Made by a program: the position numbers and the translations under genes
From: Mobula hypostoma
Taxonomy: Eukaryota
Assembly (NCBI RefSeq): GCF_963921235.1
Contig: NC_086097.1
Location: 87,174,001-87,238,000 of the forward strand
Length of the DNA stretch: 64,000 bases
Direction: 5' to 3'
The notes under the pieces: generated by a model
The model's input: the letters and a program-made list of their open reading frames with translations, nothing else
Databases searched by the model: none
What the model was told of the DNA's origin: nothing
Part shown: positions 8,227-57,792 of the stretch, in pieces
Layout of the letters: each line of letters begins with the position of its first letter
Position numbering within the stretch: the stretch's first letter is position 1

Positions 8227-8725
8227 AATAAACTCTTCTTGGGCTTCCAGCCAGGTACAATATCAATTTTAACCAATGCTTCAATGACAGGCTATGGCCA
8301 TTGCAAACACGATATTCTGCAATCACAGATTTCTCCAGGTAACCCAAACAGATTCACAATGGCCATAGGATTGACTTTGTTGGCACAAAACTACTGCGCC
8401 ACGCCAATGGTCTTTAGGGCTGCCAGGTGAAAGAAGGTATTGAAATAAAACCAGAGGAAAATAATTTTGTCAAAGGTGAAGGTCTTGATCTTAGAACTGG
8501 AATTAGATTGTAAACAAAGTGAGACAGTGGAAACCTGATTGGATGAGGACTAACAAATCAGGAGGGACAGATGACGGAGTATGAACACCACTGGACTAGA
8601 CATACTCAAGCATTTTCCCTGATGAAGCTGGCAGAGTTTGTCATTGAAACATTGGTTAAAATCAATACCTGTACCCAAGAAGAGTTTATTTGTCATATAT
8701 GCCAGGAAAGCACTAGATCCTTTTT
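8227..8725 (+). mobile_element. Penelope-like element family B: GIY-YIG C-terminus, pseudo-LTR and inverted partial pseudo-LTR
   Basis: Decayed NGHRIDF..TKLL...VKE.IEI...ENNF.K.EG; 8227-8300 is an inverted copy of about 8627-8690; flanked by taacttcaaaa(g/a)tgaa at 8213-8228 and 8726-8741. Confidence 0.8.
8615..8657 (+). ncRNA. Hammerhead ribozyme motif (decayed), Penelope family B
   Basis: CTGATGA-A-gctggca gagtt tgtcatt-GAAAC-att; stem II largely retained; cleavage triplet altered, consistent with CpG decay of GAAACGTCGG. Confidence 0.65.
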
Positions 8726-9653
8726 TAACTTCAAAAATGAAAAGATCAGCTAACGTTGACCCTTACAGACTGAAGGAACAATTACAAGAATAAAGAAATG
8801 GTAGAGAAATTCAACGAATATTATGTGATTATGTTTGCAGAAAAACAAATACTAATCCCAGAAATAATGGGGAATGGGTCCAGAGTGAATAAAGAGCTGA
8901 ACTGAATATGTTGTAGTTAAAAATAAAGTATTGGAAAAATTAATGTAGCTGAGATCCAGTAAATCCTGGATAACCTGCATCCCAGAGCTTTGAAAGTGAT
9001 GGCTTGGGATATAGTGGTTGTACTAGTTATCTTTCTACAAAAAATAGAGGTATTAGAATGGCTCTGACATACTGTATTAGGATAGAGAAAACAGAGAACT
9101 AACAGCCATTTATCCTAAAATCAATAGGAGTAAGGATACTGGCACCTACAAACGTATTATTAAGGAAGTGATAGCTAGACCCTTAAAAATAATAATAGGA
9201 TTAAGTAGAGTCTCAATGGATTTATGAAAGGGAAATCATGAAACAGTCAATATTCTGACTTTAGACTTTGAGAAGGTCTTTAATAAGGTGCTGCAGAAAA
9301 GGTCATCAAACAAAATTAGAGCAAAATTGAAGTAATATACCTAAGTGTAGATTGAGAGCTACTTAATGTTCAGAACAAGTAGGAGTTAATATGTCCATTT
9401 CCATTTGGGAGACTTTAAACTAAGAGGGTGTATGAGGACTGGTACTAAGGAAGCACTTGTTTACAATCTCGCTTCATGATTTGAATTAAAGGAGCTCATG
9501 TTGTAAATTAAGGTTCATCAAAGATAGAAACCTGGCTGGTTTTGGAAACTGGGGAGAATATGCAAAGTTTCAAGGGGATAAAGAAATGACAGATGCAATA
9601 CAATATGAATATGTGAGGTCACCCACTTTGATAGACAAAAACAGAAGAAACAG

Positions 9654-9859
9654 CAAACAAGAGGAATTCTGCAGTTGCTGGAAATTCAAGCAACACACAT
9701 CAAAGTTGCTGGTGAACGCAGCAGGCCAGGCAGCATTTCTTGGAAGAGGTACAGACGACATTTCAGGCCGAGACCCTTCGTCAGGACTAACTGAAGGAAG
9801 AACTCTTCCTAGAAATGCTGCCTGGCCTGCTGCGTTCACCAGCAACTTTGATGTGTGTT
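9654..9859 (-). mobile_element. Miniature fold-back Penelope family A insertion (non-coding)
   Basis: Inverted arms 9692-9748 and 9803-9859; TSD aacagaagaa(a/c)cag at 9640-9653 and 9860-9873; homologous to the 3' end of 52473-53773. Confidence 0.88.
9753..9788 (-). ncRNA. Minimal type I hammerhead ribozyme motif (mutated)
   Basis: Minus strand agtc-CTGACGA-a-gggtctcggcct-GAAA-t-GTC-gtct. Confidence 0.7.
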
Positions 9860-11519
9860 AACAGAAGAACCAGGATAGCTTATAAACGATGGGAGTTTGA
9901 ATAGTGTTGGCATTCAGAGAGACCTAGATGTCTCTGCACACAAGGTACCAAAATTAACCTGTAGATACAACAAGCAACTGAGGAGACTAATAGCGTGTTG
10001 GCCTTTATTGCTAGAAGATTTGTGTACATTAGTAAAGGCATCATACTGGAATTATATAAGATTCTAGAGAAAATATATCTGGAATATTGAGCTCAGAACT
10101 AACTCCCTACTTAAAAATAAAAAAACTAGCAATACTGAGAGTGCAGTGAAGGCTCACCAGGTTGATTTATGGGAAACTGGAGCTTGCCTTGTAAAGGAAA
10201 GATTAAACAGACTGGACCTGTACTCTCTTGAGTTTTGAATGAGAAATACCTTTATAAAAATAGGCAATTCTTATGGGATTTGACAGGATGGATGTGGTGA
10301 TGATGTTTCCACTACCTGTGGAAGTCACAAACTCAAAATAATCGTCCAGAAAAGAAGATTTTTTTTTTCACTCAGCAGGTGGTATGTCTCTGGAATTCGT
10401 TATGCAACAGGCCTGTGGGGGCTTTGTTACTGAGTACATTCAATGAAGTGTTTATAGGGTTTTGGATATGAATTAATCAAGGAATATGATATTTGTAAAG
10501 GTAAAAGGTACTGAGGTAAGTCATCAAATGTGATATTTTGAGTGGTGGAATTGTAGGTGCTTCGGCTTCTATTCCTTCTGTACTTCGTAAAGTGATTCAG
10601 CTTAAATTTGGAGAAGTGCTATGTAGATGACTATTGACATGCTTAGGGCCTGCTCTCAGCAGATACATTCGTTCATCTTGTGCAGCTTTCCCTTATCCAG
10701 CTATTTATAAAGTGGCTCACATATTAATTAAGTCAGCCTGTGACATTTATAGTCTTTAGCTGTGCAAAAAAAAAAATGTCACTAAATAACACTGAGTTAA
10801 TCAGTAGCAGCAATATTCTGGTGAATACTGAAAGTCTAATGAATACCTTCCAGTTGAGAAATGCCATTCTGAGGAAGTGAGCAGTAAATCTTTCACTGAG
10901 CAGGCTGATGGCCTGGATTGTGGAATCTTTAAAAACAGAGATATCTGAAGCTATCTGCAAAACTGTGAACTGATTTTTAAATCTATAGACATCCGGAAAC
11001 CAGATTTTACCCTTTTAAAGCAATAAAAAGACATGCTTTTTAATTGTAACATATACAAAGGGTGATTTATTCTTAAAGTGGGACATAATATCTCTACAAA
11101 TTTATCTTAATTCTCAGTAAAGCCTTTTCTTTCTGTCAGCTATTCGTGTTATAACTTTAGTTAAGCATGATACTGTGCAACATCTGTCATGTGATTTAAT
11201 ATCAAAATAACTTTTGACCAAGAACTTGTGGTTGTGATAATCCAAGATATGAATACACAGGAAATGAAGCATAGCTCACAAAAAGCAAAGCTGTGCTAAA
11301 GAGATAAAAGCCATCAGTGAGTACATACACTGAAAATAATATTGAGGCTGAGTCCAATATGTGATTTCCAATATTATGTTAATTGTAACAAGCTCCAGTA
11401 ATAACATTACATTCCACAGTATGTTTTTTTTAAATACAAACAATTCTCTTGGGGTAATTGATGCAGACTGGGGTGTTTGGTGAAGATGGCCATGACCTTG
11501 CATTGGCTAGTGGTGTGGC

Positions 11520-11760
11520 ACTGAACTGAACTAAATACTACTGGACTCCCGGTTTGATGTTTGATATTCTATGTGTTTTCTCCTCACTTTTTCCCGTTTA
11601 CGCAATTCGTTATTTTTTTCACACGTTGGGTATTTGAAGTTTTCTTGAACGTGTTCCAAGGTGTTTCTTGGTTTCATGGCTGCCTGTGCGAGAATTAATC
11701 TCAGAATTGTATTCTGTATGCATACTTTCAGAATAAATGCACTTTGAGTCTTTGAATCTT
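11520..11760 (+). mobile_element. Non-autonomous retroposon fragment with Rex-type tail
   Basis: Ends aatctcagaattgtattctgtatgcatac...aataaatgcactttgagtctttgaatctt. Confidence 0.6.
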
Positions 11761-12360: not shown

Positions 12361-13562
12361 ATTATAGAACTTAGAGCATAGAACATAGAATAGTACAGCA
12401 CAGTACAGGCCCTTCGGCCCACAATGTTGTGCCGACCCTCAAACCCTGCCTCCCATATAAGCCCCCACCTTAAATTCCTCCATATACCTGTCTAGTAGTC
12501 TCTTAAACTTCACTAGTGTATCTGCCTCCACCACTGACTCAGGCAGTGCATTCCACGCTCCAACCACTCTCTGAGTAAAAAGCCTTCCTCTAATATCCCC
12601 CTTGAACTTCCCACCCCTTACCTTAAAGCCATGTCCTCTTGTATTGAGCAGTGGTGCCCTGGGGAAGAGGCGCTGGCTATCCACTCTATCTATTCCTCTT
12701 ATTATCTTGTACACCTCCATCATGTCTTCTCTCATCCTCCTTCTCTCCAAAGAGTAAAACCCTAACTCCCTTAATCTCTGATCATAATGCATACTTTCTA
12801 AACCAGGCAGTATCCTGGTAAATCTCCTCTGTACCCTTTCCAATGCTTCCACATCCTTCCTATAGTGAGGTGACCAGAAATAGATAAGTACTCCAAGTGT
12901 GGCCTAACCAGAGTTTTATAGAGCTGCATCATTACATCGCGACTCTTAAACTCTATCCCTCGACTTATGAAAGCTAACACCCCATAAGCTTTCTTAACTA
13001 CCCTATCCACTTGTGAGACAACTTTCAGGGATCTGTGGACATGTACCCTGAGATGACTCTGCTCCTCCACGCTACCAAGTATCCTGCCATTTACTTTGTA
13101 CTCTGCCTTGGAGTTTGTCCTTCCAAAGCGTACCACCGCACACTTCTCCAGGTTGAACTCCATCTGCCACCTCTCAGCCCACTCCTGCATCCTATCAATG
13201 TCTCTCTGCAATCTTTGACAATCCTCTACACTATCTACAACACCACCAACCTTTGTGTCGTCTGCAAACTTGCCGACCCACCCTTCTACCCCCACATCCA
13301 GGTCGTTAATAAAAATCACGAAAAGTAGAGGTCCCAGAACAGATCCTTGTGGGACACCACTAGTCACAATCCTCCAATCTGAATGTACTCCCTCCGCCAC
13401 CACCCTTTGCCTTCTGCAGACAAGCCAATTCTGAATCCACCTGGCCAAACTTCCCTGGATCCCATGCCTTCTAACTTTCTGAATAAGCCTACCATGTGGA
13501 ACCTTGTCAAATGCCTTACTAAAATCCATATAGATCACATCCACCGCACTACCCTCATCTAT
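12361..13562 (-). mobile_element. Young CR1 LINE, 5'-truncated RT and 3' end
   Basis: ORFs 12798-13565 and 12439-12852 ([30 protein letters not shown]); one frameshift near 12880; (TTCTATG)n tail. Confidence 0.97.
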
Positions 13563-13569
13563 CATTCAC

Positions 13570-14118
13570 ATCTTCCTGGTAAAAATTACAGATACTTTGT
13601 CTCCACTTTGCCAATCAAATAGATCACTTTCTTTCTGAAATAAGATGAACTTTCTGGCATCCAGTTTAGGAACCTTTGAAATATCTTCCTTTTTCCTGAA
13701 CCATGGCTTTTCCTCTACTCTTCTTGCCTATACTCTTAATCAAATCTCATCCATTTCCTGAGCCCCTGCTCTTACTGCTTAGAACAGAGATAGAGTTCCA
13801 CTGGCCATCATCATACACCTCTCTCCATCCTCTCCATTCAACAAATCATTCTCTGCAATTTAAACCAACTTCAAACAGATTCCAGCATAAGGTACATCAT
13901 CCCCCACAACATTTCACAGGGACTATTTATTTTGCAAACTGCTGGTTCCCAGTTCTGTTCCCACCACCCACTCCCCTTCTCACGGCACTTTCTTTTGCAA
14001 CTGCAGACAACGTAACCAATGTTAGCAGTGTTGACAAATGCTTTTTGAACTGAAAAAATTAACCCTGTTTCTCTTCCCACCACTCCACCCCGACCTCCTG
14101 AGTATTTCCAGCATTTTA
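13570..14118 (+). mobile_element. Decayed Penelope-like fragment (RT C-terminus/linker plus 3' end)
   Basis: aacagagatagagttccactg (NRDRVPL), ctctccattcaacaaatcattctctgcaattt (L.IQ.IIL.NF); 3' end gacctcctgagtatttccagcatttt. Confidence 0.7.
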
Positions 14119-14121
14119 AGG

Positions 14122-20504: not shown

Positions 20505-20985
20505 AGGAACCACATCTTATATTCCACCTGAGTCACCTGCAACCGAGCAACATGAATGAAGATTCAGCTTCTGCTACCTGCTTCCCCTTTGTTCCTTTTC
20601 TCTTTTCTCACTCCTCCTGATCAACCTGACCTTATCACCATAACTATTTACCCCCACCTCCTCCCTCCATTTCCTCTCCCCACCTCTTTCCCTTTATTTC
20701 ATTCTCCTCCTTCCACCCATCACCTTCTAGCTTCTGATGCTTTTGACACTCTCCGTTGGCCTGCCAGCCCTCCTCAAATGGATCCTCCCATTGCCTACCA
20801 GCTTTTGATCTACCCCTTCTTGGCACTTATTTTTTTACTGCCTACTTTCCTCCATCTTTTGGGGCAGGTGTAGGCTCTCGACCTGAAAAGCTGACTATCT
20901 GTTTCCACCCATAGATGCAGTCTGACCTGATAGTCCTCCAGCACTTTGTGTGTTGCTCCAGATTTTAGAAACTGCACTCTCTTCT
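20505..20985 (+). mobile_element. Decayed Penelope family A-like 3' fragment
   Basis: gaaccacatcttatattccacctgagtcacctgcaacc (E.HLIF.L..LQP), CT-rich tract, eroded hammerhead region near 20870-20897 and typical 3' end. Confidence 0.75.
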
Positions 20986-21298
20986 GTACCCAGCACGATC
21001 ACTTGCTAGAAATTCTATGTAATTGCAAACCCATTATTCTATAAAAATCAGAGTACAAGTAATAAGTAACCACAATAGAAATGCGCCTAGCAGTAGACTG
21101 AATTTGCTGATGCCAACACATTAAAATGTGAACTCCTGCCAAAACTTGTCACGTATCTTGAGCCAAGGCTCAGATCCATTTACAATGAGAGTTATAGTGA
21201 GAAATACAACTTTAGGTTTTCAATGGAAGTGCAGAAAATGAGAAGTGAACTAGAACATGGTTCTTCTGTATATGACACATTTTTCACTTTATCATATA

Positions 21299-22560: not shown

Positions 22561-24979
22561 AACACAGAACATAGAACATAGAACATAGAATAGTACAGCA
22601 CAGTACAGGCCCTTTGGCCCACAATGTTGTGCCGACCCTCAAACCCTGCCTCCCATATAGGCCCCCACCTTAAATTCCTCCATATACCTGTCTAGTAGTC
22701 TCTTAAACTTCACTAGTGTATCTGCCTCCACCACTGACTCAGGCAGTGCATTCCATGCACCAACCACTCTCTGAGTAAAAAACTTTCCTCTAATATCCCC
22801 CTTGAACTTCCCACCCCTTACCTTAAAACCATGTCCTCTTGTATTGAGCAGTGGTACTCTGGGAAAGAGGCACTGGCTATCCACTCTATCTATTCCTCTT
22901 ATTATCTTGTACACCTCTATCATGTCTCCTCTCATCCTCCTTCTCTCCAAAGAGTAAACCCCTAGCTTCCTTAATCTCTGATCATAATGCATACATTCTA
23001 AACCAGGCAGCATCCTGGTAAATCTCCTCTGTACCCTTTCCAATGCTTCCACATCCTTCCTATAGTGAGGTGACCAGAACTGGACACAATACTCCAAGTG
23101 TGGCCTAACCAGAGTTTTACAGAGCTACATCATTACATCGCGACTCTTAAACTCCATCCCTCGACTTATGAAAGCTAACACCCCATAACCTTTCTTAACT
23201 ACCCTATCCACCTGTGAGGCAACTTTCAGGGATCTGTGGATATGTACCCCGAGATCCCTCTGCTCCTCCACACTACCAAGTATCCTGCCATTTACATTGT
23301 ACTCTGCCTTGGAGTTTGTCCTTCCAAAGTGTACCACCTCACACTTCTCCAGGTTGAACTCCATCTGCTACTTCTCAGCCCACTTCTGCATCCTATCAAT
23401 GTCTCTCTGTAATCTTTGACAATCCTCTACACTATCTACAACACCACCAACCTTTGTGTCGTCTGCAAACTTGCCAACCCACCCTTCTACCCCCACATCC
23501 AGGTCATTAATAAAAATCACGAAAAGTAGAGGTCCCAGAACAGATCCTTGTGGGACACCACTAGTCACAATCCTCCAATCTGAATGTACTCCCTCCACCA
23601 CCACCCTCTGCCTCCTGCAGGCAAGCCAATTCTGAATCCACCTGGTAAAACTTCCCTGGATCCCATGCCTTCTAACTTTCTGAATAAGCCTACTGTGTGG
23701 AACCTTGTCAAATGCCTTACTAAAATCCATATAGATCACATCCACTGCACTACCCTCATCTATATGCCTGGTCACCTCCTCAAAGAACTCTATCAGGCTA
23801 GTTAGACACGATCTGCCCTTCACAAAGCCATGCTGACTGTCCCTGATCAGATCATGATTCTCTAAATGCTTATAGATCCTATCACTAAGAATCTTTTCCT
23901 ACAGCTTTCCCACCACAGACGTAAGGCTCACTGGTCTATAATTACCCAGACTATCCCTACTACCTTTTTTGAACAAGGGAACAACATTCACCTCCCTCCA
24001 ATCCTCCGGTACTATTCCCGTGGACAACGAGGACATGAAGATCCTAGCCAGCGGCTCAGCAATCTCTTCTCTCGCCTCGTGGAGCAGCCGGGGGAATATT
24101 CCGTCAGGCCCCGGGGATTTATCTGTCCTAATGTATTTTAACAACTCCAACACCTCCTCTCCCTTAATATCAGCATGCTCCAGAACATCAACCTCATTCA
24201 TATTGTCCTCACCATCATCAAGTTCCCACTCATTGGTGAATATCGAAGAGAAGTATTCATTGAGGACCTCGCTCACTTCCACAGCCTCCAGGCACATCTT
24301 CCCACCTTTATCTCTAATCGGTTCTACCTTCACTCCTGTCATCCTTTTTTTCTTCACATAATTGAAGAATGCCTTGGGGTTTTCCTTTACCCTACTCACC
24401 AAGGCCTTCTCATGCCCCCTTCTTGCTCTTCTCAGCCCCTTCTTAAGCTCCTTTCTTGCTTCCCTATATTCCTCAATAGACCCATCTGATCCTTGCTTCC
24501 TAAACCTCATGTATGCTGCCTTCTTCCTCCTGACTAGATTTTCCACCTCACTTGTCACCCATGGTTCCTTCACCCTACCATTCTTTATCTTCCTCACTGG
24601 GACAAATTTATCCATTACATCCCGCAGAGATCCCTAAACATCGACCACATGTCCATAGTACATTTCCCTGCAAATACATCATCCCAATTCACACCCGCAA
24701 GTTCTAGCCTTATTGCCTCATAATTTGCCTTTCCCCAATTAAAAATTTTCCTGTCCTCTTTGATTCTATCCTTTTCCATGATAATTATAAAGGCCAGGGA
24801 GCGGTGGTCACTGTCCCCCAGATGCTCACCCACTGAGAGATCTGTGACCTGACCCGGTTCATTACCTAGTACTAGATCTAGTATGGCATTCCCCCTGGTC
24901 GGCCTGTCCACATACTGTGACAGGAATCCATCCTGGACACACTTAACAAATTCTGCCCCATCTAAACCCTTGGAACTAA
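22561..24979 (-). mobile_element. Young CR1 LINE, end of endonuclease plus RT plus 3' end
   Basis: Consecutive ORFs ([58 protein letters not shown]) with few stops or frameshifts; (TTCTATG)n tail; nearly identical to 12361-13562. Confidence 0.97.
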
Positions 24980-25204
24980 AGAAAAAACTTTTGACAGAAT
25001 TTACTTCAAGGCTTACGAAAATCTGCCAGAGTTCAACTGTAAAAATACAATAAAGGCAATAAACACATTTGCTTACCCAAAGTGACATAATATCTTGGTG
25101 TGAAACCGATCTAGAAAATTGAAAAGAAAAATAAGAACTGAAATGACCAATTTCAGAGAACATTAAGTACACTTAAATGCATTTAGATTAACACGACCTT
25201 GTGT

Positions 25205-25493: not shown

Positions 25494-26841
25494 CACTACC
25501 TAGGACATAAGGAAGAAGAGGAGTAATAGATATTAAAAAATTACACAACGGGTCAGATTTAACTTCTAAGTATATATTTTCATCAATGAAAATAAGCACT
25601 CCACATGAGCATATGCAATTGTGATAAGAAGAATACAGCACCACACTTAAATGAGAGCACAGCCCAGAAAAATGAAGAAATTATCACTATTGAAGTAATT
25701 ATGTAACTAGTTTTGGGAATGTGAGTTTAGAGTCCTTGAAAGTGAGTTCATAGTTTGTGGAATCAGTTCAGTGTTGGGGTAAGTGAGGTTATCCACTCTG
25801 GTTCAAGAATACAATGGTTGAGGGGTGATAGCTGTTCCTGAATTTGGTGGTGTAGGACCTGAGACCTTCATCCTGATGGCAAGAAGAGAGCATGGCCTGG
25901 ATGGTGGGGGTTCTTGATGATAGTGAGGTATATCATTATTTTCTTCAGTAGTGATAAATTCTTCTTTTTTTCTGGGCAGTGCTCTCATTTAAGTGTAGTA
26001 GAATGACCCTCCATGGAAGACAACTCCACGGTCTGAGCAGACTGAAATTTGGCAAGGAAGTGTTAAATGCCTGGGTCAGAGTTGGAGACTTCTTCCCAGA
26101 AACAGAGGGGTTCCTTGTGGCAATACAGGACCTGGTGGTTAACACAAAATTATCAAAGGTATGTAATAAAAGACCAACAAATTCAAGATGATAAATGTGA
26201 AAATGCTAAGAAACATCAGAAACAATCCAACAGATTACAGGATCCTGTAGCAGTTTGACAGAATCTGATTACTTACACAGGCACAATCAAGTGGCAAACA
26301 TTGTTTACCAAAATCTTGTTTTAAAATAGAAACTCATAAAAGAAATCATACCTACCTGATCCAGTTTTAGAATCAGAATACCACAAATTATATTGTGACT
26401 GATCCATTATTACAGATAGGATAATCTTTAATAACTGTCTGGATATAATAATACAGGCTAAACAAGGAAGAACAACTTATTCAATAGATACAACCATTCC
26501 AAGCATACAAAACCTACAGAAATCAATAAGTGACAAACATCAGAATTATGCTGAATTAAAAGAAGAAATTGAAAGACTTTGGAACATGAAATGGATATAC
26601 ATTGTCCCAATAGTAATATCTATAACTGGTATCATCCCAAAGGCACTAAACAAAAGCATTAAGCAATTAGGCCTACTCAGCAATATCTATGTAAATCTTC
26701 AGAAAGCCAAAATACAAAACACCACTAAAATAGTCCAAAAGTTCCTAGCAATTGAGAAATGAGTAGGCTTTTCTATGCCTGTATCTCAGCTTCACCAGCT
26801 TGAGCTGAGTAAAAATAAGTGTCAATAATAATAATAAATAA
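25494..26841 (+). mobile_element. R4/Dong-clade non-LTR retrotransposon 3' part (CCHC finger and restriction-like endonuclease), decayed
   Basis: TLPR..GR.G, LHGR, NAW...GDFFPETEGFLVAIQD, DDKC..., SDYLHRHNQVANI; ends in (AAT)n. Confidence 0.85.
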
Positions 26842-28317: not shown

Positions 28318-30140
28318 CAGTGGATTCTGGTTAATTGGGACATATTGAGATCCGTATGTTTTGACCCAATTAAGTGGCTGCCCAGAATTACCTAAAGTTT
28401 CATGGAAATAGTTATAAAGGTATATTAAAAAATGACAACCTACCATTTATGTGAGTAACAAATCCTATATTTAAATGAAATACAGCACAAATTAGAATAC
28501 CACTAATACAATACTATAAAACTGTGTATTTGTTCCTAATAGTTATCAATGGAGGAATTCATCCAGAGTAGGCTGCCATGTTTCTTTGATTGACTGCAAA
28601 TGGAAAAAAATTTGTGCAGACACCTAGTCCTGATAGTGGATTGCCATCATATAATACTTCTGACAATTGCATCCTTCAAATCATTCCATTGCAATATTCA
28701 AGATGATTGCTGATACCTTCAAGTTCTTCAGAATTCCTAACTTGCAGAAGTAGTGAAACTGTTTTATTTTCACTCCTGGTCGTTTCTGACATCTCCAACC
28801 CTAAATGCTTGAAACTGCAGTGAGCAAAACGGTTCTGCATTGTCTTACTGCTTACTTCTTGCCAACTATCAGAATCAGAAACAGGCTTAATATCACTGCC
28901 AAATGTTGTGAAATTTGTTAACTTTGCGGCAGCAGTATAATGCAATAAATGATAAATAAACACATTACAGTAAGTATATATGTATATTAAATAGTTATAT
29001 TAGAGTAAGTAGTGCAAAAAGAACATGTTTTAAAAAAGGTGGAGAGGTGGTCTTCATGAGTTCAATGTCCATTTAGAAATCGGATGGCAGAGGCAAGAAG
29101 TTGCTCTTGAATCACTGAGTGTGTGTCTTTAGGCTTCTGTACCTCCTTCCTAATGGTAACAATGAGAAGAAGGCATGTCCTGGATGGTGGGGGTCCATGA
29201 TGATGGAAGCCAATTTTCTGAAGAACCACTCCTTGAAGATGTCTTGGATACCACATAGGCTAGTACACATGATGGAGTTAACTAATTTTACAACTCTCTG
29301 TAGCTTGCTATAATCCTGTGCAGCAGCCCCCTTTCCCATACCAGACAATGATCCAACCAGTCAGACTGCTCTCCATAGTACATCTGTAGAAGCTTTTGAG
29401 TGTTTTAAGTGACAAACCAGATCTCCTCAAACTCCTAATGAAATATAGCTACTGTCTGGTCTTCTTTATAGCTGCATTGATATGTTGGGACCAGGTTAGA
29501 TCCTCAGAGATCTTGACACCCAGGAACTTGAAATTGCTCGCTCTCTCCACTTCTGATCCCTCAATGAGGATTGGTTTGTTTTCCTTCGTCTTACCCGTTC
29601 TGAAGTCTGCAAACAGCTCTTAGGTCTTACTGACATTGAATGCAAGGTTGTTATTGTGACACCACCCAACTGGTTGGTATATCTCGCTCCTGTACATCCT
29701 CTTGACACTATCTGAGATTCTGCCAACAATGGTTGTATCATCAGCAAATTTATAGATGGCATTTGAACTATACCTAGCCAGATAGTCTTGGTATAGAGAG
29801 AGTAAAGGAATGGGATAAGCACACATCCCTGAGGTGCGCCAGTGCTGATTGTCAGTGACAAAAATCACTGATTTTTGAAGACAAACACACAAAATTGGCA
29901 CTATTTAAAAACTGTTTGCTCTAAACATTGAGTAGTGTCTCACAACCATGCAAGTGCATGTGATTAATGCTAGTTAAAAACTGTTTGGCAACAGTCTCCT
30001 GTCCCAATTAAGTGCCATGTTGTCCCAAGTAAATGAAGGCAATCCGGGCTATTTTCTCAATTAGTTTTTGTTCTTTGTGAGTTTTCCCAAATAAGTGGCT
30101 GCTCCAATTAATTGATAGCCCAATTAAGTGGAATCCACTG
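28318..30140 (-). mobile_element. Tigger/pogo-like internally deleted DNA transposon with nested Rex LINE
   Basis: TA-cagtggattctggttaattggg ... cccaattaagtggaatccactg-TA; removing the insert restores LQKSVIFVTDSWQEVSSKTMQNRFAHCSF (pogo-type AW..V...TI.NCF...GF). Confidence 0.85.
28869..29855 (-). mobile_element. Rex1/Babar LINE, RT C-terminal half and 3' end
   Basis: STGAPQGCVL.PFLYSLYT, YKFADDTTIVGRISD, WCHNNNLAFNVSKT; (ATTCTG)-type tail. Confidence 0.93.
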
Positions 30141-37200: not shown

Positions 37201-37256
37201 ACTGCCACTCTCCAGAACTTGTATGTTCACATCTAAATGTTAATTTTATTCATGTA

Positions 37257-37530
37257 GTGTACTATGCAAAATTCTTAAGCACATATAAATAGCTAGGGTG
37301 CCTAAGACCTTTGCACAGTACTGCATTTGTCAATGGGGGAGCAGAGAGCAAGTTTGTAAATCTGGCAGGAGCAAAAGATGTTGGGAATGGTGAGGGTGGA
37401 CTGCCACAGGAGGGGTGTGGGACAGGTGGCAGGGGAGGAGCGCCAGGTGGTGGGGGGTTGCACGGGTGCAGACACACCCAACCCTGAGACACCAAGCAAG
37501 GTCATTTGATGCCAAACAATTGGTTTATTG
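37257..37530 (-). mobile_element. Composite Tc1-like element, copy 2 (half, cut by Penelope insertion)
   Basis: Palindromic terminal unit about 37257-37323 followed by the reverse complement of the 5080-5290 interior. Confidence 0.82.
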
Positions 37531-38230
37531 ATAAACAAGAGAAAATCTGCAGGTGCTGGAAATCCAAGCAACAAACTCAAAATGCTGGAGGAACTCAGCA
37601 GGCCAGGCAGAATCTATGGAAAAAAGCACAGTTGATGTTTCGGGCTGAGACCCTTCAGCAGGAATGGAGAAAAAAGGCTGAGGAGTAGATTGAAAAGGTG
37701 GGAGAGGGGGAAAGAAACACAAAGTGATAGGTGAAACCAGAAGGGGAAGGGATGAAGTGAAGTGCTGGGAAGTTGACTGGTGAAAGAGATACAGGGCTGG
37801 AAAAGGGGAGTCCGTTAGGAGAGCACAGAAGACCATGGAAGAAAGAAAAGGGGGAAGGAGCACCAGAGGGAGGCAATGGGTAGACAAGGAGATAAGGTGA
37901 GAGAGGGAAAAAGAGATGGGGAATAGTGAAGGGGTCGGGGGGGGTGGGGGGAGAATAACACCAAAAGTTCGAGAAATCAATGCTCATGCCATCAGGTTGG
38001 AGGCTACCCAGATGGAATATAGGGTGTTATAACCTGTGTGTGGCCTCATCACGACAGTTGAGGAGGTCATGGATGGACATATTGGAATGAGAATGAGAAA
38101 TGGAGTTAAAATGGATGGTCACTAGGAGATCCTACCTCTTCTGCCGGATGGGGTGTAGATGGTCAGTGAAACAGTCTTCCAATCTACATCGGGTCTTACC
38201 AATATAAAGGAGGCCACACTGGGAGCACTG
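37531..38230 (-). mobile_element. Penelope family A-like 3' part (GIY-YIG C-terminus and pseudo-LTR)
   Basis: Minus strand LYIGKTRCRLEDCFTDHL ... LGSLQPDGMSIDFSNF; complete 3' tail; hammerhead-like motif at 37630-37665 (CTGCTGA variant). Confidence 0.88.
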
Positions 38231-38340
38231 GAAATCCAAAGCAAAGGGTCTCGAACCTGAATTGTTGACTTAGTTTCTCTGCTCACGGATGTGGCCTGTA
38301 CTGTTGAATATATCCAGCATTTCCTGTTGTTAATTCTTCC
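38231..38340 (+). mobile_element. Older Penelope-type 3' end in opposite orientation
   Basis: aagggtctcgaacctgaattgttgact...atatccagcatttcctgtt. Confidence 0.55.
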
Positions 38341-42709: not shown

Positions 42710-43324
42710 CAGTGGTCCCCAACCTCTGGGCCACGGACCGATACCAGGCCACGAAGCATGCAGGGGTGCAGTGGTAGCCAGAGCATACCCAGCACATCTT
42801 TAAGAAAAAAGCCAAAATTAACAAGCTAATTAATTAGGTGCTGCCAGAATCCAGTCTTCATTAGAGGAACTGAGGTGGAGAGGGTCAATAACTTTAAATT
42901 CTTCAGCATTAAGGATCGATGTTTCTCTCTCTGAAAAGTGTCAGAGGATCTGTCCTGGGACCAGCACGTAACCGTCATTACAAAGAAAGCATGGCAGCAC
43001 CTATACTTTATTAGAAGTTTGTGTAGATTCAACATGTTACCTCAATCCTGACAGGCCTGTCTTTTCAGCCTGTCTGGGCTGGCGTTTAAATTTACCAAAC
43101 AATGGAACAGCTAAAGGCTCCAGCGCCCTGGAAAGAGGAGTGAATATCACGTAGAGCAAGTGAAATCGACAATCGCCTCTGATCTGGGCTGACATTTACG
43201 TGCCGGGCGGCACCTAATTAATTAGCTTGTTTATTTTTGGCTTTTTTCTTAAAGATCTGCTGGGTGCGCTTCGGATACCGCTGTACCCCTGCATGCTTCA
43301 CGGCCCGGAGGTTGGGGACCACTG
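42710..43324. mobile_element. hAT (Charlie-type) non-autonomous element with long TIRs carrying a Rex fragment
   Basis: cagtggtccccaacctc ... gaggttggggaccactg; 8-bp TSD TTTTAGTC at 42702-42709 and 43325-43332; inverted similarity extends over 100 bp. Confidence 0.93.
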
Positions 43325-45489: not shown

Positions 45490-45650
45490 AAAATGCATCA
45501 GATGCTGGAAATTTGAAGTAAAATCAAATTTGGCAATATCTCTGGAGACAGAAAATAATGCTGTCATTTCAGGTAAATGGCCTTTCATCAATTCTCCATG
45601 CACACTGCCTGACAAACACAGAGCATTTGCATCGCTTTCAATCTTATTCC
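45490..45650 (-). mobile_element. Very old Penelope-derived fold-back remnant
   Basis: cagatgctggaaatttgaagtaaaa tail; minus-strand ttgatgaaaggccatttacctgaaatgac is an eroded hammerhead. Confidence 0.5.
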
Positions 45651-46700
45651 TGCTTTTATCAAACTCCTCAACCACAAACAAATGCACAAAGGTGTAGATC
45701 AGAAATAGAAAGGAAGTGTTGAGTTCTGAATGTGGGGACCTTGTTCATTTTTATTTCATTATTGCTGAACCATCTAGCTCCTCGGGCAGGTCATGTTAAA
45801 ATACTTGTAGTACACTCACTTTCTCATTAAGGTTGATTAATTCATATTAACCAAGTTTCAGTATCTCAATGACCAGACACATACATGCTGAGCCATTTGG
45901 AAAGACGTAATGTTCACTGCGAGCTCCACATATTCTAATTAATTTACAGGCTGATTTCTGCATTGTGTCGATAAAATCTTGTCCTTTCAATGACCTTGCA
46001 CTTACTTGCTTCTGCTCCACAAAGCCGTACTTTTAAAATAGAAAGTGTAGTTGGTATCTGGAATGAACAGTTAAAAACATTTAGTTTGAATGAGCAAGTC
46101 AATGGTGGATTGGGAATTAAAGCAGGCAAATTGGACCAATAAAGACAGGTGTGATGAGGGACGTAAACGTGATGGGCCACAGTGTGTTTCCTGGCTGTAC
46201 AACTCCATGACTGCATGATGAGCAGGGAAGTGAATGTGTCCTTTTGATTTTTTTGGAGAATAAGACTGGATAATTTCAATTAGCCTTGTGCTGCTTCCAA
46301 TTCAGCAGGTGTGATAATGCAAAATCAATTCAGCTTGCAACAGGCGATGATGCATAATTAATTAGATTGAAATAGATTTTCAAGTGATCACATTGATATG
46401 ACTAGATTTGACCATTTAAAAAGCTGTAGATTATATTTTACAATTATATGTTTCCAAAGTTGGCAGCCAAAACAAGACCATGACAGTAGCTGGATGGGGT
46501 CCATCATTAACTAAATATTCCGGTTAACCCAGGCAACCTGTTCATACTCTATACCTTCACAGTATGGTCCGGGTCAATTTTGACCCGGCCCAAGAATCCC
46601 CTCATAACACGAGGACATCTGCAGATGCTGGAATTTCAAGCAACACACAAAAAATGGTGGTGAACGCAGCAGGCCAGGCAGCATCTATAGGAAGAGGTAC

Positions 46701-46736
46701 AGTCGACTTTTCGGGCCGAGTCCCTTCTTCAGGACT
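46701..46736 (-). ncRNA. Minimal type I hammerhead ribozyme motif
   Basis: Minus strand agtc-CTGAAGA-a-gggactcggccc-GAAA-a-GTC-gact. Confidence 0.72.
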
Positions 46737-46851
46737 AACTGAAAGAAGAGATAGTGAGAGATTTGAAAGTGGGAGGGGGAGATCCAAAATGAAATAAAAT
46801 CTCCTCCTCCCCCACCCACTTTCAAATCTCTTACTATCTCTTCTTTCAGTT

Positions 46852-46887
46852 AGTCCTGACGAAGGGTCTCAGCCCGAAACGTCAACT
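46852..46887 (+). ncRNA. Minimal type I hammerhead ribozyme motif
   Basis: agtc-CTGACGA-a-gggtctcagccc-GAAA-c-GTC-aact. Confidence 0.75.
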
Positions 46888-47464
46888 GTACCTCTTCCTA
46901 TAAATCCCCTCATAACAAGTGTCTATACCAAATTTTGAACCACAGATCTATTTAGAATGTATAAATAGCCTATCTGACATTAATAAATGGGTGATTAATC
47001 CTTAATTAATGTTTCAGTGATGTAAAATCCATTTCAATAGATAAGGGTCAAATTTGACACGGAACAGCCTCAATGTACAAAAATCTGTAGCACCTGTACA
47101 AAAGTATAACATTTTTAAATATTTTTCATTTCTGCATTTTTTGGGTCACTTTAGGAAAAGTCATCAAATTTCGGCTAAAAATGGCACTTAGGATGTTTTA
47201 CTGCTATCAAATGTCAAAACGGGTCAAATTTGACCCAAACTGTATGTAAGAGTTAAAGATATTTACACATTTAGTTATTTCTTTCGGCTGGAAACTTAAT
47301 AACAAAAATCAAAGAAATGGCAGATATATCGAGTCAATTGCTTGCTTCAATTTTCACTGCAGAAGGTTCTGTAAATATCCCTAAGTGAAACAGAGGATAA
47401 TTCCAAATAATAATTAGAGACTTGTAAAACACACAATAGTGACTTTGGTTTAATCCAGACCACT

Positions 47465-49799: not shown

Positions 49800-50840
49800 T
49801 GAGCACTGCTCTGGTCCTTTACTTAATAAAAGGATGTGATAGCATTGGAAGCACCAGGCTAATAAATCAAATGAGAGGGTTTCCCTGTCAAGACTGTCTA
49901 GGTAGTTTGGGTCTGTATTCCTTGGAGTTTAGAAGAATGAGAGTGAACCTATTCAAACATATACAGTAGTGTGCAAAAGTCTTAAGCACATGTACATAGC
50001 TAGGGTACCTAAGAGTTTTGCAAAGTACTGTAGTAATTTTATGTATTGCATTGACTGCTGCCGCAAAAAAAAAACAAATTTTGTGGCATATGTGAGTGAT
50101 GATAAATCTGATTTTGATATGGGTCTCTATTGTGGACTGAGAGTGGGAAAAGGGGAAGGGGGAGATGAGGGAGCGGGAAGCCCAGAGAGACATTCTGTGG
50201 TGATCAATAAACCAATTGTTTGGAATCAAATGACCTTGCCTGCCGTCTCAGGACTGGGTGTATCTGCACTCATGCCATTTTTACCCATGGCACTCCTCTG
50301 TCACCTGTGCCACACCCTTCCCACAGCATTCCACCCTTGCAATTCTCAATATCCTTTGCTCCCACCAGGTTTACAAACTTGCGCTTCCCTCCACGTTGAC
50401 ATATACAATACCATGCAAAACACTTAGGGATGCTACCTATATGTTGTATATATGTGCCTAAGACTTTTGCATAGTACTACAAGTTCATAAGAGAGCTTGA
50501 GAGGATAGATATTGAGATGTTTTTGCTTATGGAAGACTCACAAACAAGTGGATGTAACTACAAAATAAGATGCCAGTCATTTAAAATTCAAGCTTTTTCT
50601 CAGAAGGTAGTGAATCTCTAGAATTCCCTGTCAGGGTATTGGAAGGCATATCATTACATTGATTCAAGGTGGTTGGATAAATAGTTAAAAAACTGGGGAA
50701 TTCTGGGTTATGAAAAACTGTTACAGCCAAAAGATAAGCCCAGCATAGATCAGCAATGATTAGACTGGATGGTTTGCAGGTTTCAGGTCTTGCTGGCCTC
50801 CCTAACCCTAACCCTACTCCTGCTCCTGTTTTCATGTGTT
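49800..50840 (+). mobile_element. Decayed CR1 3' part hosting composite Tc1-like copy 3
   Basis: LGLYSLEFRRMR; resumes after 50480 with gcttgagaggatagat and agaaggtagtgaatct. Confidence 0.75.
49964..50479 (+). mobile_element. Composite Tc1-like element, copy 3 (both palindromic ends present)
   Basis: Left unit 49964-50030, right unit about 50405-50479; inserted at a TA in CR1. Confidence 0.87.
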
Positions 50841-51974: not shown

Positions 51975-52472
51975 TATTACTGAGATACAGTGAAATCTTT
52001 ATTTTGCATGCCATCCATACAAAACATTTCAAAATGTAAGTATATTAGCACAGCACATTGGAAAAGCAATAACAGAATGCAGACTATATTGTTACAGTTA
52101 CAGAGAAAGTGCAGTGCAGGTAGACAATAAAATCCAAAGGCCATGACCAGGCAGATTGTGTGGACAAAGTTCATCCTTATCATAGAAGAAGCCTGTTCAA
52201 TAGTCTTATAACAGTGGGATAGAAGCTGTCCTTAAGCCTGGGGTTTGGCTTTTGTATCCTCTGTCTAACGGAGGGGCAAAGAAGAAGAAACTTGCGGATA
52301 GGTCAGGTTTTTAATGAATTTGGCTGCTTTTCTGAGGCGTTGGGAAATGCAGATGGAGTCCATGAAGGAGACTGGTTTTTGTGTTGGACTGAGCTGTGTC
52401 CACAATTCTCTGTAATTTCTTGCTGTTTTGGATAGAGCAGTCAGCGTACCAGGCTGTAATACATCAAAATTG
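51975..52472 (-). mobile_element. Rex1/Babar 3' fragment (continues briefly at 53788-53806 after Penelope)
   Basis: ctgagctgtgtccacaattctctgtaatttctt...taccaggctgtaatacatc | gatgttttctatgatgca. Confidence 0.75.
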
Positions 52473-52570
52473 CAAACACGAGGAAATCTGCAGATGCTGG
52501 AAACTCAAGCAACACACACAAAATGCTGATGGAATGCAGCAGGCCAGGCAGCATCTATAGGAAGAAGTAC

Positions 52571-52606
52571 AGTCGACGTTTCGGGCTGAGTCCCTTCGTC
52601 AGGACT
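52571..52606 (-). ncRNA. Minimal type I hammerhead ribozyme motif, intact core
   Basis: Minus strand agtc-CTGACGA-a-ggg actcag ccc-GAAA-c-GTC-gact: stem I agtc/gact, stem II ggg/ccc, palindromic ACGT stem III. Confidence 0.85.
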
Positions 52607-53675
52607 AACTGAAAGAAGAGATAGTAAGAGATTTGAAAGTGGGAGGGGGAGGGGGAGATCCGAAATGATAGGAGAAGACAGGAGGGGGAGGGATGGAGCT
52701 AAGAGCTGGAATGTTGATTGGCAAAAAGGATACAGAATTGGAGAAGGGGGAGGATCATGGGACAGGAGGCCTAGGGAGAAAGAAAGGGGGAGGGGAGCCC
52801 AGAGGAAAAAAAGGGGAGGAATAAAAATAAATAAGGGTTGGGGTAAGAAGGGGAGGAGGAGCACTAATGGAAGTTAGAGAAATCAATGTTCATGCCATCA
52901 GGTTGGAGGCTACCCAGATGGAATATAAGGTGTTGTTCCTCCAACCTGAGTGTGGCTTCATCTTGACAGTAGAGGAGGTCATGGATTGACATATCAGAAT
53001 GGAAATGGGACGTGGAATTAAATCGGAACAAGTGCTACACATGCCTTTACACTTCCTCCCTTTCCACCATTCAGGGCACCAGACAGTCCTTCCAGGTGAG
53101 GTGACACTTCACCTACGAGTTGGCTGGTGTGGTATACGATATCCGGTGCTCCCGTTACGGCCCTCTATATATCGGTGAGACCCGATGCAGACTGGGAGAC
53201 CATTTCGCTGAACACCTACGCTCTGTCCACCAAAGAAAGCAGGATCTCCCAGTGGCCACACATTTTAATTCCACGTCCCATTCCCATTCTGATATGTCAA
53301 TCCATGGCCTCCTCTACTGTCAAGATGAAGCCGCACTCAGGTTGGAGGAACAACACCTTATATTCTGTCTGGGTAGCTTCCAACCTGATGGCATGAACAT
53401 TGATTTCTCTAACTTCCATTAATTCCCCTCCTCCCCTTCTTACCCCATCCCTTATTTATTTTTATTCCCCCCCCCACTTTTTCCCTCTGGGCTCCCCTCC
53501 CCCTTTCTTTCTCCCTAGGCCTCCTGTCCCATGATCCTCCCCCTTCTCCAACTCTGTATCCCTTTTGCCAATCAACTTTCCAGCTTCTTCCCTCCCCCTC
53601 CTGTCTTCTCCTATCATTTCGGATCTCCCTCTCCCCCTCCCACTTTCAAATCTCTTACTATCTCTTCTTTTAGTT

Positions 53676-53711
53676 AGTCCTGATGAAGGGTCTCGGCCCG
53701 AAACATCGACT
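53676..53711 (+). ncRNA. Minimal type I hammerhead ribozyme motif
   Basis: agtc-CTGATGA-a-gggtctcggccc-GAAA-c-ATC-gact (G>A change in stem III). Confidence 0.78.
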
Positions 53712-53956
53712 ATACTTCTTCCTATAAATGCTGCCTGGCCTGCTGCGTTCCACCAGCATTTTGTGTGTGTTGCATATATCTAAATTGGATGTTTTCTATG
53801 ATGCAACCATAATAATTGGGGCTGTTCACCTTCAGAAACAGAAACAAGCTGTCTTTCTCTTACAAGCTGGTAAGTTATTTGACCCTTACCCTCACCTTAT
53901 AAAAACAAAAAGTTAATAAAGATTGGTTTATCTCATGTAGCACTGTTGGCCTAAGT

Positions 53957-54038: not shown

Positions 54039-54684
54039 GCCTAAGTCCATAGCATGGCTACAATGTAGTTAGCAGCAGATGAGTATATAGCACAGTTCCT
54101 TCCACTGGAAAGACTTGGTGAAAATAAAGAAAATGGGAATCACCGGAAATGTTTTCAAAGCAAGAATGAGCCATGGGTATGATCAACTCAGAACATTGCG
54201 TACATTTTCTAATAGTCATAGTACAAATAAGGATAATGAAATTATTCAGGGTTGATGGAAAGATTGAAGCAACAGAAAGATTACATTAAGTAAATAGGGC
54301 ATTTTTCACTAGAAAATAGATTAGAATCAATATTATTGGTGTGTTTAAGATCCTAAAGAAACTAGATAATGTAAAAATAACAAGCTCTAACGTTTTGCGT
54401 CAAACAGTAGAAACAGAAGGTACAGTCTGCATTGGCAGAGAATTGCACAAACTGATCAATAGAAAGAATATTTCAACAAGTCACTGGTCAGTCTATTTGA
54501 CTGCTTCTATAGAGGTATTGTTGAAAGCAGTTAGAATTAATTCATTCAAACATATAGATAGATATTGTTTACAATATAATGCATTACAAGTTGTTTAAGA
54601 CCCTGGCATGTGAAGTATAACATGCTTAGGAGAAGTAGGTGATATTGGCCCTTTGAGTTGATTTGTGACTGATTAGTGATGGTA

Positions 54685-56430: not shown

Positions 56431-57099
56431 TTCACAAAAGTCGCACTTCCACGTTTTTCAGTTTGATCGCTCTAAAATCTTTCAGCTACAAGCTGCCGAC
56501 TTCAGCACAGCATATGCCATCTTGTTTCAAGTTACGTCAGCTTTAGCAGAGGACCTTTTGACCTTCAACAATGGAGAGCATTGAAAGTTTGTTCTGCAAT
56601 AATTTTCCTAACAGAAATGCTTGTTTAAATCAAGGAGTTTGCATGTTTACATGTGACTATTAGGATGAGGGAAATGTGGCCTAAAGTCACCTGCCACTGG
56701 CAGTGGCACTGGTGCCTGTATGAGCTAGACTCTTTAAAGTTGCCTGATATTTCATCTTTGATTTCCTTAAGGCCAGTCAACAACCATTTCATTGTGCTTT
56801 CTGCTACATGCTTCCTCACTGAAATATTCAAATGTGTTTACTGAGACAGAACTGATGTGTCAAACAGGCAGTTGGCATCTCTCTGTCCTGGGGACGTGAA
56901 CAGCTGGCAGTTCACTTCGTCTAAGCTAGTGCCTGTAGGATGCAGTTGGTATTAAGTTGGTTGCTGCAATTGTCAGACCAAGTAACAAAATATTTTCTTC
57001 ACCACACTTCTCAGGTGGAGTTGTCAGTGCTGCTTGGTGAAGCAAATTTCTTAGCTATGTGCAGGAAGGCACAAAGCTGAAAAATGATGCCTGGGAGTG

Positions 57100-57560
57100 G
57101 AATGAGTTCAAGAAAGAGGCCTTTGTACCTGCAAAATCAGAAGAGTTATGAGTTGAAGTGGAAATAAGCTGAATTACAATAGTTAAGGAATGGTCATGGT
57201 ATCTTGGCCCCTGCCCCATAGATGGACAAAGAGTCTGTGATGGTCAGTCCAAAAATGTCAAGCTTCTCAAGGGTGGGTGGGTAGTCAGCATGTAGAGCTG
57301 AAAACAGTTTGCTACTGCTGTTGAGACAGGTGTTACACTATGTTCAGCTGGAGAAAGGAAAGTGTTATAGAGCATGTCTGGTAGTGAAACAGCCGGATTG
57401 AATAGATTGCAGGCCATGAAATGTGGTTATAAAGTTTACAATGGTGGAAAGTGTGTGAAGGCATTGGAATGTTTGATCATATCTTTAATTAAGAATTGAG
57501 AAGTTTGGATACATTGCACTGAGCAATGTTTGGCTATTGGTGCTGTTATAAGGAGATGGA
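57100..57560 (-). mobile_element. Highly decayed L2-like remnant
   Basis: Faint reverse-strand similarity to L2 RT (eroded YADD region near 57283-57297). Confidence 0.35.
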
Positions 57561-57620
57561 ATTTGATGTAAACATTGACCTTCATCGTGTATGATTATTG
57601 GATTTTGTTCTTGTTACTGT

Positions 57621-57792
57621 AAAAGAGAAAATGTTGGAAACACACCTTTCCATGCAGCAACTGTGGTAGAGAAAACAGAGGTCATGTTTCAGATCCTTTA
57701 TCATAACAGAGTTTATAAATGAAATATTAACTGAACTACTGTGTTTCCAACATTTTCTACTTTAACTCAGAATTCCAGCACCTCCAGCTTTT
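57621..57792 (+). mobile_element. Old Penelope-derived fold-back remnant
   Basis: Perfect 19-bp inverted repeat 57626-57644 and 57740-57758, with a one-sided tail cagaattccagcacctccag. Confidence 0.65.

What the first reader, a model, noticed from the sequence alone, without database searches (positions are those of the whole stretch)
8227..57792. Window-wide system of hammerhead-bearing, fold-back Penelope insertions with one shared architecture
Seen: four insertions (8227-8725, 9654-9859, 46610-46902, 52473-53773) from two families with unrelated sequence share a design. Each has one arm with a complete 3' end and an inverted arm lacking the terminal tail (about 35-38 nt missing in three cases, more in the fourth), 14-16-bp target duplications, and one or two CTGAnGA...GAAAnnTH hammerhead cores. 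Eroded versions occur near 20870, 37630, 45490 and 57621. Established: Penelope-like elements encode GIY-YIG plus RT, carry minimal hammerheads in pseudo-LTRs, and can have inverted pseudo-LTRs and short tails. Inference: this lineage repeatedly makes 200-300-bp ribozyme hairpins, either as truncation products of a strand-switching integration step or as an independently mobilised retrozyme-like class. The parts are known; the density and miniaturised series are what stand out.
Basis: partly seen in the sequence, partly recalled or inferred. Interest (0 to 1): 0.72.

Follow-up and report, generated by a model that had tools for sequence, protein, structure and literature searches.

The report
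Inverted, truncated Penelope retroelement insertions
These hairpin-shaped inserts are real, but they are the ordinary broken-off, back-to-back tail ends that Penelope-type jumping genes leave behind when they insert, here from very abundant families in a ray genome, and not a new class of self-cutting RNA element.

Summary
The four main insertions are real. Each has head-to-head arms, a tail on one arm only (the other arm lacks 35-38 nt, once 80 nt), a 14-16-bp target duplication and minimal hammerhead cores. Of the four "eroded" sites, two are fold-backs and none keeps a core or a clear duplication. The host looks like a myliobatiform ray. Family B is a Neptune-type Penelope-like element (PLE), with about 170,000-180,000 contigs per DNA run. 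This layout is the published standard PLE arrangement (Craig 2021; Arkhipova 2013). Opposite-strand hammerhead pairs 100-700 bp apart were reported in 2014, and two reverse-transcriptase start sites explain the tail (Frangieh 2024). Evidence against an independent retrozyme-like class: every junction differs, arms run from 57 to 751 nt, and no junction lies at the ribozyme cut site. No tandem units exist, 1 of 6 cores is intact, and most cores are predicted to be buried by their own antisense arm. Best model: two-ended priming with early termination. Unexplained: 9+2 contigs join a tail end directly to a tail-less end. The scan reached the same verdict before, on this and other genomes.

The parts
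8213..8228 (+). Element A left TSD (16 bp)
8229..8296 (-). Element A inverted, tail-less arm (about 68 nt; covers only the 3' half of the hammerhead)
8297..8725 (+). Element A sense arm: broken C-terminal GIY-YIG-like coding relic (8298-8510, two stops), minimal hammerhead core at 8619 (predicted cut before 8654), 35-37-nt tail
8726..8741 (+). Element A right TSD
9654..9801 (-). Family B mini-insert, tail-bearing arm (148 nt) with mutated hammerhead core at 9784; TSD 9640-9653
9804..9859 (+). Family B mini-insert, inverted tail-less arm (56-57 nt, starts 9 nt past the predicted cut); TSD 9860-9873
13672..14120 (+).
   Evidence: tblastn E 2e-4; nhmmer E 0.37
20505..20990 (+). Old single-arm family-B-like 3' end with tail; no inverted arm, core or TSD
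37533..38330 (.). Eroded family B fold-back: tail-bearing arm 37533-38236 (minus strand, includes GIY-YIG end), inverted tail-less arm about 38244-38330; no TSD
45490..45590 (-). Very old tail-bearing arm related to the 57621 relic; inverted partner not supported
46610..46792 (-). Family B mini-insert, tail-bearing arm with core at 46732 (stem III palindrome lost); TSD 46595-46609, whose last 4 bases also fit the element end
46799..46902 (+). Family B mini-insert, inverted arm with core at 46856, ending 80 nt short of the tail end at a 3-base match with the TSD (46903-46917)
52473..53022 (-). Family B insert, tail-bearing arm (550 nt): GIY-YIG C-terminus, 3' UTR, the only intact hammerhead (core 52602, predicted cut before 52574), 36-nt tail 52473-52508; TSD 52459-52472
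53023..53773 (+). Family B insert, tail-less arm (751 nt): end of the CX4CxxC linker, broken GIY-YIG endonuclease frame 53030-53419, core at 53680; TSD 53774-53787
57620..57793 (.). Very old short fold-back relic (tail on the right arm), no core, no clear TSD

Best explanation
These are one-off, 5'-truncated, head-to-head (inverted) insertions of two endonuclease-bearing Penelope-like element families in a ray genome. Family B is Neptune-type and extremely abundant; family A belongs to another PLE lineage. Likely mechanism: the element's GIY-YIG endonuclease nicks both strands of an AT-rich site about 14-16 nt apart (inferred from the TSDs; nicking of both strands is shown in vitro for the anole PLE). 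Each free end primes reverse transcription on element RNA, one at the start site that defines the tail end and one at the site about 35 nt further in (two such sites are shown in vitro for the anole PLE; here inferred from the arm ends). Both cDNAs stop early, at variable points, and are joined head-to-head with a few filler or shared bases (inferred). The hammerhead is present because it sits about 70-130 nt from the element's 3' end, so most short products contain it. The copies are dead on arrival and decay neutrally.
For: TSDs of 14-16 bp, 60-79% AT. The outer ends fall on two family-wide termini 36 nt apart: 3 of 4 main inserts use the tail-less terminus (A), and genome contigs of two species show a joint at exactly 52473 and 52508. 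Inner ends all differ: 147/93, 196/187 and 550/about 790 nt from the tail end in family B; A's arms are about 430 and 68 nt. In 52473-53773 neither arm can have been copied from the other: the tail-less arm carries 241 nt that the other lacks, and the tail is only on the other. This needs two engagements with a template and excludes simple cDNA snap-back for this copy. Its two arms share 6 of 18 alignable family-minority letters, as expected from one source. The GIY-YIG relic is 83-85% identical to Hypanus and Mobula PLE proteins with a CX4CxxC linker. Published: an inverted 5'-truncated copy plus a one-sided 30-40-bp tail is the typical PLE layout (PMC8557442 Fig. 2 legend; PMC3846280). Both strands are cut and extended, two RT start sites bound the tail, and hammerhead cleavage is not needed (PMC11167929).
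Against: The 46610 arms end only 9 nt apart (196/187), and the 9654 junction forms a 6-bp hairpin; both fit snap-back or later loss of the centre of a perfect palindrome. The 46610 right arm ends 80 nt in, not at the second start site. The junction census is tiny (5 fold-backs with measurable arms). In the contig test only 15 of 555 joints were shown, and even normal family continuity gave only 15 contigs per DNA run, so a moderately repeated mini-junction could be hidden. Two-ended priming is not stated for PLE inverted copies in the papers read; Arkhipova 2013 favours self-priming on an antisense template.
Confidence: 0.85

Rival explanations
1. Same elements and same dead-on-arrival status, but the inversion arises by cDNA snap-back or self-priming (or antisense-template priming), giving a near-perfect palindrome whose centre is later trimmed by deletion between short repeats.
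For: Near-symmetric inner ends at 46610. At 9654 both arms begin with the same 6-base word, which makes a small junction hairpin. Palindromes at inverted junctions are reported in PMC3846280. In 4 of 5 measurable fold-backs the tail-bearing arm is the longer one, which snap-back requires.
Against: It cannot make 52473-53773, where each arm has sequence the other lacks. It does not explain why the second arm stops at the same tail-less terminus in both families.
Confidence: 0.3
2. The 200-300-bp hairpins are an independently mobilised, retrozyme-like non-autonomous class that uses its hammerheads to release and circularise itself.
For: Two of the four main inserts are 206 and 293 bp with clean TSDs. 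Non-autonomous PLE derivatives and PLE-derived retrozymes exist, including in one chondrichthyan (bioRxiv 10.64898/2026.07.22.740005). 9 contigs in X1 and 2 in X5 join a tail end directly to a tail-less end, as a circle junction or a tandem of fold-back units would.
Against: No two junctions are alike. No head-to-tail units or tandem cores occur. Each strand carries one core per element, so no intramolecular dimer can form. 1 of 6 cores keeps both the self-complementary ACGU and an unbroken start of stem I. Four cores are paired to the antisense arm with P 0.87-1.00 and A with 0.60; the only free core (9784) is mutated. 0 of 8 inner arm ends lie at the predicted cut. No head-to-head joint with more than one contig per run is among the 15 joints shown of 555. 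The tail-to-tail joint was seen in 0 contigs of the two putative RNA runs.
Confidence: 0.06
3. The structures are DNA-transposon-type foldback elements or MITEs with terminal inverted repeats.
For: Inverted arms and TSDs, as in MITEs; real MITEs do occur in the window.
Against: The arms are unequal at their outer ends, so they are not terminal inverted repeats. The TSDs are 14-16 bp. The arms are 3' ends of RT/GIY-YIG retroelements.
Confidence: 0.01

Closest known systems
Complex inverted insertions of EN+ Penelope-like elements (Craig et al. 2021, PMC8557442, Fig. 2; Arkhipova et al. 2013, PMC3846280; Schostak et al. 2008, PMC2377424, Fig. 1C)
   Same: [quoted passage not shown]
   Different: The copies here are so truncated that no RT and no partial tandem remains. 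The TSDs are longer (14-16 bp, against 8-10 bp in the Adineta examples read). The ray families themselves were not found in the papers searched.
Minimal hammerheads of metazoan PLEs (Cervera and De la Pena 2014, PMC4209133)
   Same: Type I minimal core, bulged base before stem II, 5-bp stem I, self-complementary tetramer in place of helix III. Pairs of motifs 100-700 bp apart on opposite strands, attributed to truncated PLEs, were already reported in Schistosoma mansoni.
   Different: Helix II in family B is short (3-4 bp) compared with the 7-8 bp described for S. mansoni. Activity of the ray motif is untested.
Anole Poseidon element PAc (Frangieh et al. 2024, PMC11167929)
   Same: Two RT start sites bounding the tail, AT-rich targets, both strands cut and extended, protein predicted to be a dimer.
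   Different: A different clade from family B. The start region is described as AC-rich, whereas the family B termini read GU-rich on the coding strand. The main text read does not deal with inverted products.
Animal non-LTR retrozymes (Cervera and De la Pena 2020, PMC7229834; Li et al. bioRxiv 10.64898/2026.07.22.740005)
   Same: Short, non-coding, PLE-derived, with a type I hammerhead and long TSDs.
   Different: Retrozymes are head-to-tail tandem repeats with at least two same-strand hammerheads and give circular RNA. These inserts are head-to-head with one core per strand.
L1 twin priming (recalled, no paper read)
   Same: Both nicked strands prime cDNA, giving an inverted segment and a TSD.
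   Different: In L1 the two primed segments are adjacent parts of one RNA. Here both arms copy the same 3' region, which needs two templates or re-use of one.

Membership tests
EN+ Penelope-like elements | C-terminal GIY-YIG endonuclease with CCHH motif (family B) | tested here: met
   53105-53419 is 83-85% identical to ray proteins P0001 and P0002. Pfam GIY-YIG E 0.057 for the relic and 5e-4 for P0002, both below the cut-off. One of the two cysteines is mutated in this copy.
EN+ Penelope-like elements | C-terminal GIY-YIG endonuclease (family A) | tested here: inconclusive
   The relic is 62% identical to a Hypanus fragment, P0022. No Pfam or NCBIfam hit. P0022 1-75 resembles the models of clusters carrying GIY-YIG, HTH_animal and RVT_1, but under the atlas's naming bar. 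The motif reading as a PLE endonuclease C-terminus is from my own knowledge.
EN+ Penelope-like elements | PLE-type reverse transcriptase upstream of the endonuclease | tested here: inconclusive
   Absent from the inserts (truncated). Present upstream in homologues of family B (P0002, P0014 with RVT_1 E 0.005, P0019). No RT phylogeny was run.
EN+ Penelope-like elements | Hammerhead motif in the terminal repeat, sense to the ORF | tested here: met
   Cores at 53680+ behind the + strand ORF, and at 8619+ behind the + strand relic.
EN+ Penelope-like elements | Inverted 5'-truncated copy with a 30-40-bp tail at one end only, and a TSD | tested here: met
   3 of 4 main inserts lack 35-38 nt on the second arm, 1 of 4 lacks 80 nt; TSD in 4 of 4.
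Neptune clade (family B) | CX2-5CxxC linker before GIY-YIG (shared with Nematis, absent from Penelope/Poseidon; PMC8557442) | tested here: met
   The CxxC half is at 53030-53044, cut by the junction; the full CX4CxxC is in P0001 and P0002. Neptune versus Nematis was not separated by a tree.
Non-LTR retrozymes | Head-to-tail tandem units with two or more same-strand hammerheads | tested here: not met
   No tandem array over any element (6 TRF rows, none overlapping). One core per strand per element.
Non-LTR retrozymes | A fixed unit copied to many loci | tested here: inconclusive
   All junctions in the window differ. No recurrent head-to-head joint among 15 of 555 joints shown; the test has low sensitivity.
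Non-LTR retrozymes | Self-cleavage and circular RNA | not testable with these tools
   Only contigs were available, with no raw RNA reads. Folding predicts that the cores are buried.

The most novel reading that the evidence does not exclude
A minority of fold-back units is re-copied as a unit through a circular or tandem intermediate, marked by the exact tail-end to tail-less-end joints seen in 9 and 2 contigs of two species. In addition, the minimal hammerhead's self-complementary stem III may serve mainly to pair two element RNAs inside a dimeric RT-endonuclease complex, which would explain why both nicked strands so often copy the same 3' end. The ray genome's very large copy number would make both ideas testable by census.
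Probability: 0.1. Interest if true: 0.6.

Novelty: new member of a known kind. Interest (0 to 1): 0.17.

Why it matters
As found, it matters little: it is a clear vertebrate example of a published insertion pattern. The one lasting use is as material. How PLEs form inverted insertions is named as an open question in PMC8557442, and ray genomes hold enough TSD-bounded copies to count arm ends and junctions. The 52473 copy already shows that simple snap-back cannot be the only route.

Tried and rejected
No whole genome is held for this window, so the copy census could not be run. Pattern scans for more loci found nothing: metagenome contigs, viral contigs (19), prokaryote genomes (20). The run search listed no holder on record as RNA and no raw-read runs. 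The two putative RNA runs laid are contigs and say nothing on RNA ends, strand or level; no places where many molecules begin or end were listed. Contig depth along the arm does not fall steadily from the 3' end, but the tool says depth is no copy number, so it was not used. Flank-to-element contigs (X1 52212-52494; X5 52212-52499) reach only about 21-26 bases into the element, below the 31 needed to count as bridging, so a shared insertion in the two species is not claimed. Rfam found no hammerhead; the miRNA hits at 46727-46861 are below the gathering scores and were rejected as generic long-hairpin matches. The pair count used a wrongly registered structure and is void; the corrected listing shows stems kept in five young cores with single breaks and no compensatory change, which is uninformative. 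Homology searches for a full family A protein failed. The idea that junctions lie at the ribozyme cut was rejected (0 of 8 inner ends). The 20870 site was rejected as a fold-back, and 45490 is unproven. A co-fold of two copies of the intact core gave a mixed intermolecular structure (-33.2 kcal/mol) that was not checked against the active dimer and is no evidence of activity.
Full report
1. Is it there? Yes for the four main inserts. Self-comparison and repeat finding show head-to-head arms at 8229-8725, 9654-9859, 46610-46902 and 52473-53773. A flank search gave direct repeats of 16, 14, 15 and 14 bp with 1, 1, 0 and 2 mismatches. Three beat all 1500 random position pairs and the fourth is matched by 1.1% of them. 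One arm of each carries the full 3' end. The other lacks about 35-37 nt (A), 38, 36 or 80 nt. Six hammerhead-type cores are present. Family A and family B are unrelated in DNA and show no significant protein match.

The eroded list is half right. 37533-38330 and 57620-57793 are fold-backs, 20505-20990 is a single arm, and at 45490 only one arm is supported (null of 300 random window stretches). None of the four has a CTGAnGA core or a clear TSD. A ninth relic lies at 13672-14120. In all, 6 of 9 PLE-like remnants are fold-backs, 2 are single-armed and 1 is uncertain; together they cover 4305 bases, 6.7% of the window.

2. What is it? The 53030-53419 frame encodes a broken GIY-YIG domain. Its 105-aa open part found 20 proteins among 109 candidates, the best being Hypanus sabinus and Mobula hypostoma proteins at 83-85% identity, so the host is most likely a myliobatiform ray. 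These relatives carry RT sequence and a CX4CxxC linker upstream, which marks the Neptune and Nematis clades (PMC8557442, passages). Family A's 71-residue relic matches one Hypanus fragment (62%, E 2e-6; the only other hit looks spurious). That fragment resembles eukaryotic GIY-YIG/RT clusters in the atlas, under the naming bar; its clade is not established. Family B is huge: 178,826 and 168,197 contigs of two DNA runs from two organisms lay on 1064 bases at 85% likeness (contigs are not copies, and a short part of the left flank is also repetitive). The density in the window therefore needs no special explanation.

3. Anatomy of the junctions. Measured from the tail end, the inner ends in family B are 147/93, 196/187 and 550/about 790 nt; A's arms are about 430 and 68 nt. 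No two agree. The predicted cut lies at position 102 in B and at 8654 in A; 0 of 8 inner ends fall on it, the nearest being 9 nt away. The two small B junctions hold 2 and about 6 bases that fit neither arm. In 52473-53773 the tail-less arm has 241 nt that the tail-bearing arm lacks, so neither arm was copied from the other. The two arms nonetheless share 6 of 18 alignable letters where the left arm departs from the family majority (19 of the 23 listed rows in range were used, those with a majority above half in X1; one fell in a gap), as expected from one source element or subfamily.

In the contig data 15 of 555 joints were shown. The best supported are the normal family continuity (53022 to 53263; 15, 15, 5 and 9 contigs) and a joint from 52473 to 52508 on opposite strands (9, 2, 0 and 0 contigs). 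The latter confirms the two termini 36 nt apart in two species. Every other opposite-strand joint shown, apart from a 3-base variant of the continuity joint, had at most one contig per run, and none matched the window's mini junctions. The test is weak, because ordinary continuity itself gave only 15 contigs and X1 was too deep to be counted in full.

4. The ribozymes. The motif has the published minimal form: a 5-bp stem I, a bulged A, a 3-4-bp stem II and a self-complementary ACGU in place of helix III, which can pair only with a second copy (PMC4209133, parts 1-2 of 4). Only the core at 52602 keeps both ACGU and an unbroken start of stem I; the other five have a changed tetramer or a broken stem. 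Folding each whole element, four cores pair with the antisense arm at P 0.87-1.00, A at 0.60, and stem I forms in none of the six. Because the arms are head-to-head, a transcript of either strand passes the antisense arm first, so co-transcriptional folding would not help (inference). Each strand has one core per element and there are no tandem units. The fold-back geometry is thus the opposite of what a retrozyme needs.

5. Mechanism. Shown elsewhere in vitro (PMC11167929, parts 1-2 of 4): the PLE protein cuts and extends both strands at AT-rich DNA, starts at two sites that bound the tail, and does not need hammerhead cleavage; no RNA-seq reads ended at the cut site. Shown here: AT-rich TSDs (60-79% AT), outer ends at two fixed termini, variable inner ends, and one copy that needs two template engagements. 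Inferred: staggered nicks, two cDNAs started at the two sites, early termination and head-to-head joining. I put 0.85 on these being one-off truncation products of PLE integration, with two-ended priming as the likeliest route. Snap-back or later loss of a palindrome centre remains possible for the small copies and is closer to the view in PMC3846280 (passages and Discussion).

6. What is in print. An inverted 5'-truncated copy with a one-sided 30-40-bp tail is drawn as the typical arrangement (PMC8557442). Inverted repeats of variable size flank D. virilis Penelope (PMC2377424, passages). Minimal hammerheads 100-700 bp apart on opposite strands were reported and linked to truncated PLEs (PMC4209133). 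Animal retrozymes are head-to-tail tandems (PMC7229834, passages; bioRxiv 10.64898/2026.07.22.740005, parts 1-2 of 5). I found no paper on these ray families, none naming a foldback mini-class of PLEs among the 15 of 58 listed (listing only), and none tying twin priming to PLEs among the 2 listed (listing only). The library lacks most subscription papers and Repbase. No supplements were read; those of the bioRxiv preprint (closed) and of PMC4209133 may list chondrichthyan motifs. L1 twin priming is recalled. Earlier notes of this scan reached the same reading on this and other genomes; they are not independent support. One of them (e1-7790562) reports a single insert that starts at the cut site, which I did not see here.

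7. Verdict. The feature is real and the architecture is known; the families may be undescribed in the papers searched. Interest 0.17. The loose end worth following is the exact tail-end to tail-less-end joint.

Noticed in passing
contigs of runs X1 and X5 laid on window 52473 and 52508: 9 and 2 contigs join the family B tail end directly to an inverted tail-less end, at about single-copy depth in X1. This could reflect tandem fold-back units, a circle junction, or insertion at an older copy's own end.
   Followed up: partly
window 42710-43324: MITE-like element with terminal inverted repeats starting CAGTGG and an 8-bp TSD, suggesting the hAT type (superfamily recalled), with a LINE-like fragment inside.
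   Followed up: partly
window 28318-30140: About 1.8-kb element with terminal inverted repeats of about 23 bp flanked by TA, suggesting the Tc1/mariner type.
   Followed up: no
window 49964-50478, 5292-5362, 4834-5333 and 37251-37532: A second TA-flanked TIR family, including a 70-bp copy made only of the two inverted ends.
   Followed up: no
window 59153-59634: A 118-bp inverted duplication (92% identical) inside a decayed pol-like frame that looks like an LTR retrotransposon.
   Followed up: no
window 25635-26003: Inverted arms of about 63 bp around a LINE-like fragment; origin not examined.
   Followed up: no
window 12366-13562 and 22566-25172: Two young CR1/L2-type LINE copies, 95% identical over 1.2 kb, with broken RT frames (family name recalled).
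   Followed up: no
proteins P0003, P0005 and P0022: Ray gene models named as a kinase-domain protein, mucin-2 or uncharacterised include PLE endonuclease sequence, probably annotation read-through into these repeats.
   Followed up: no
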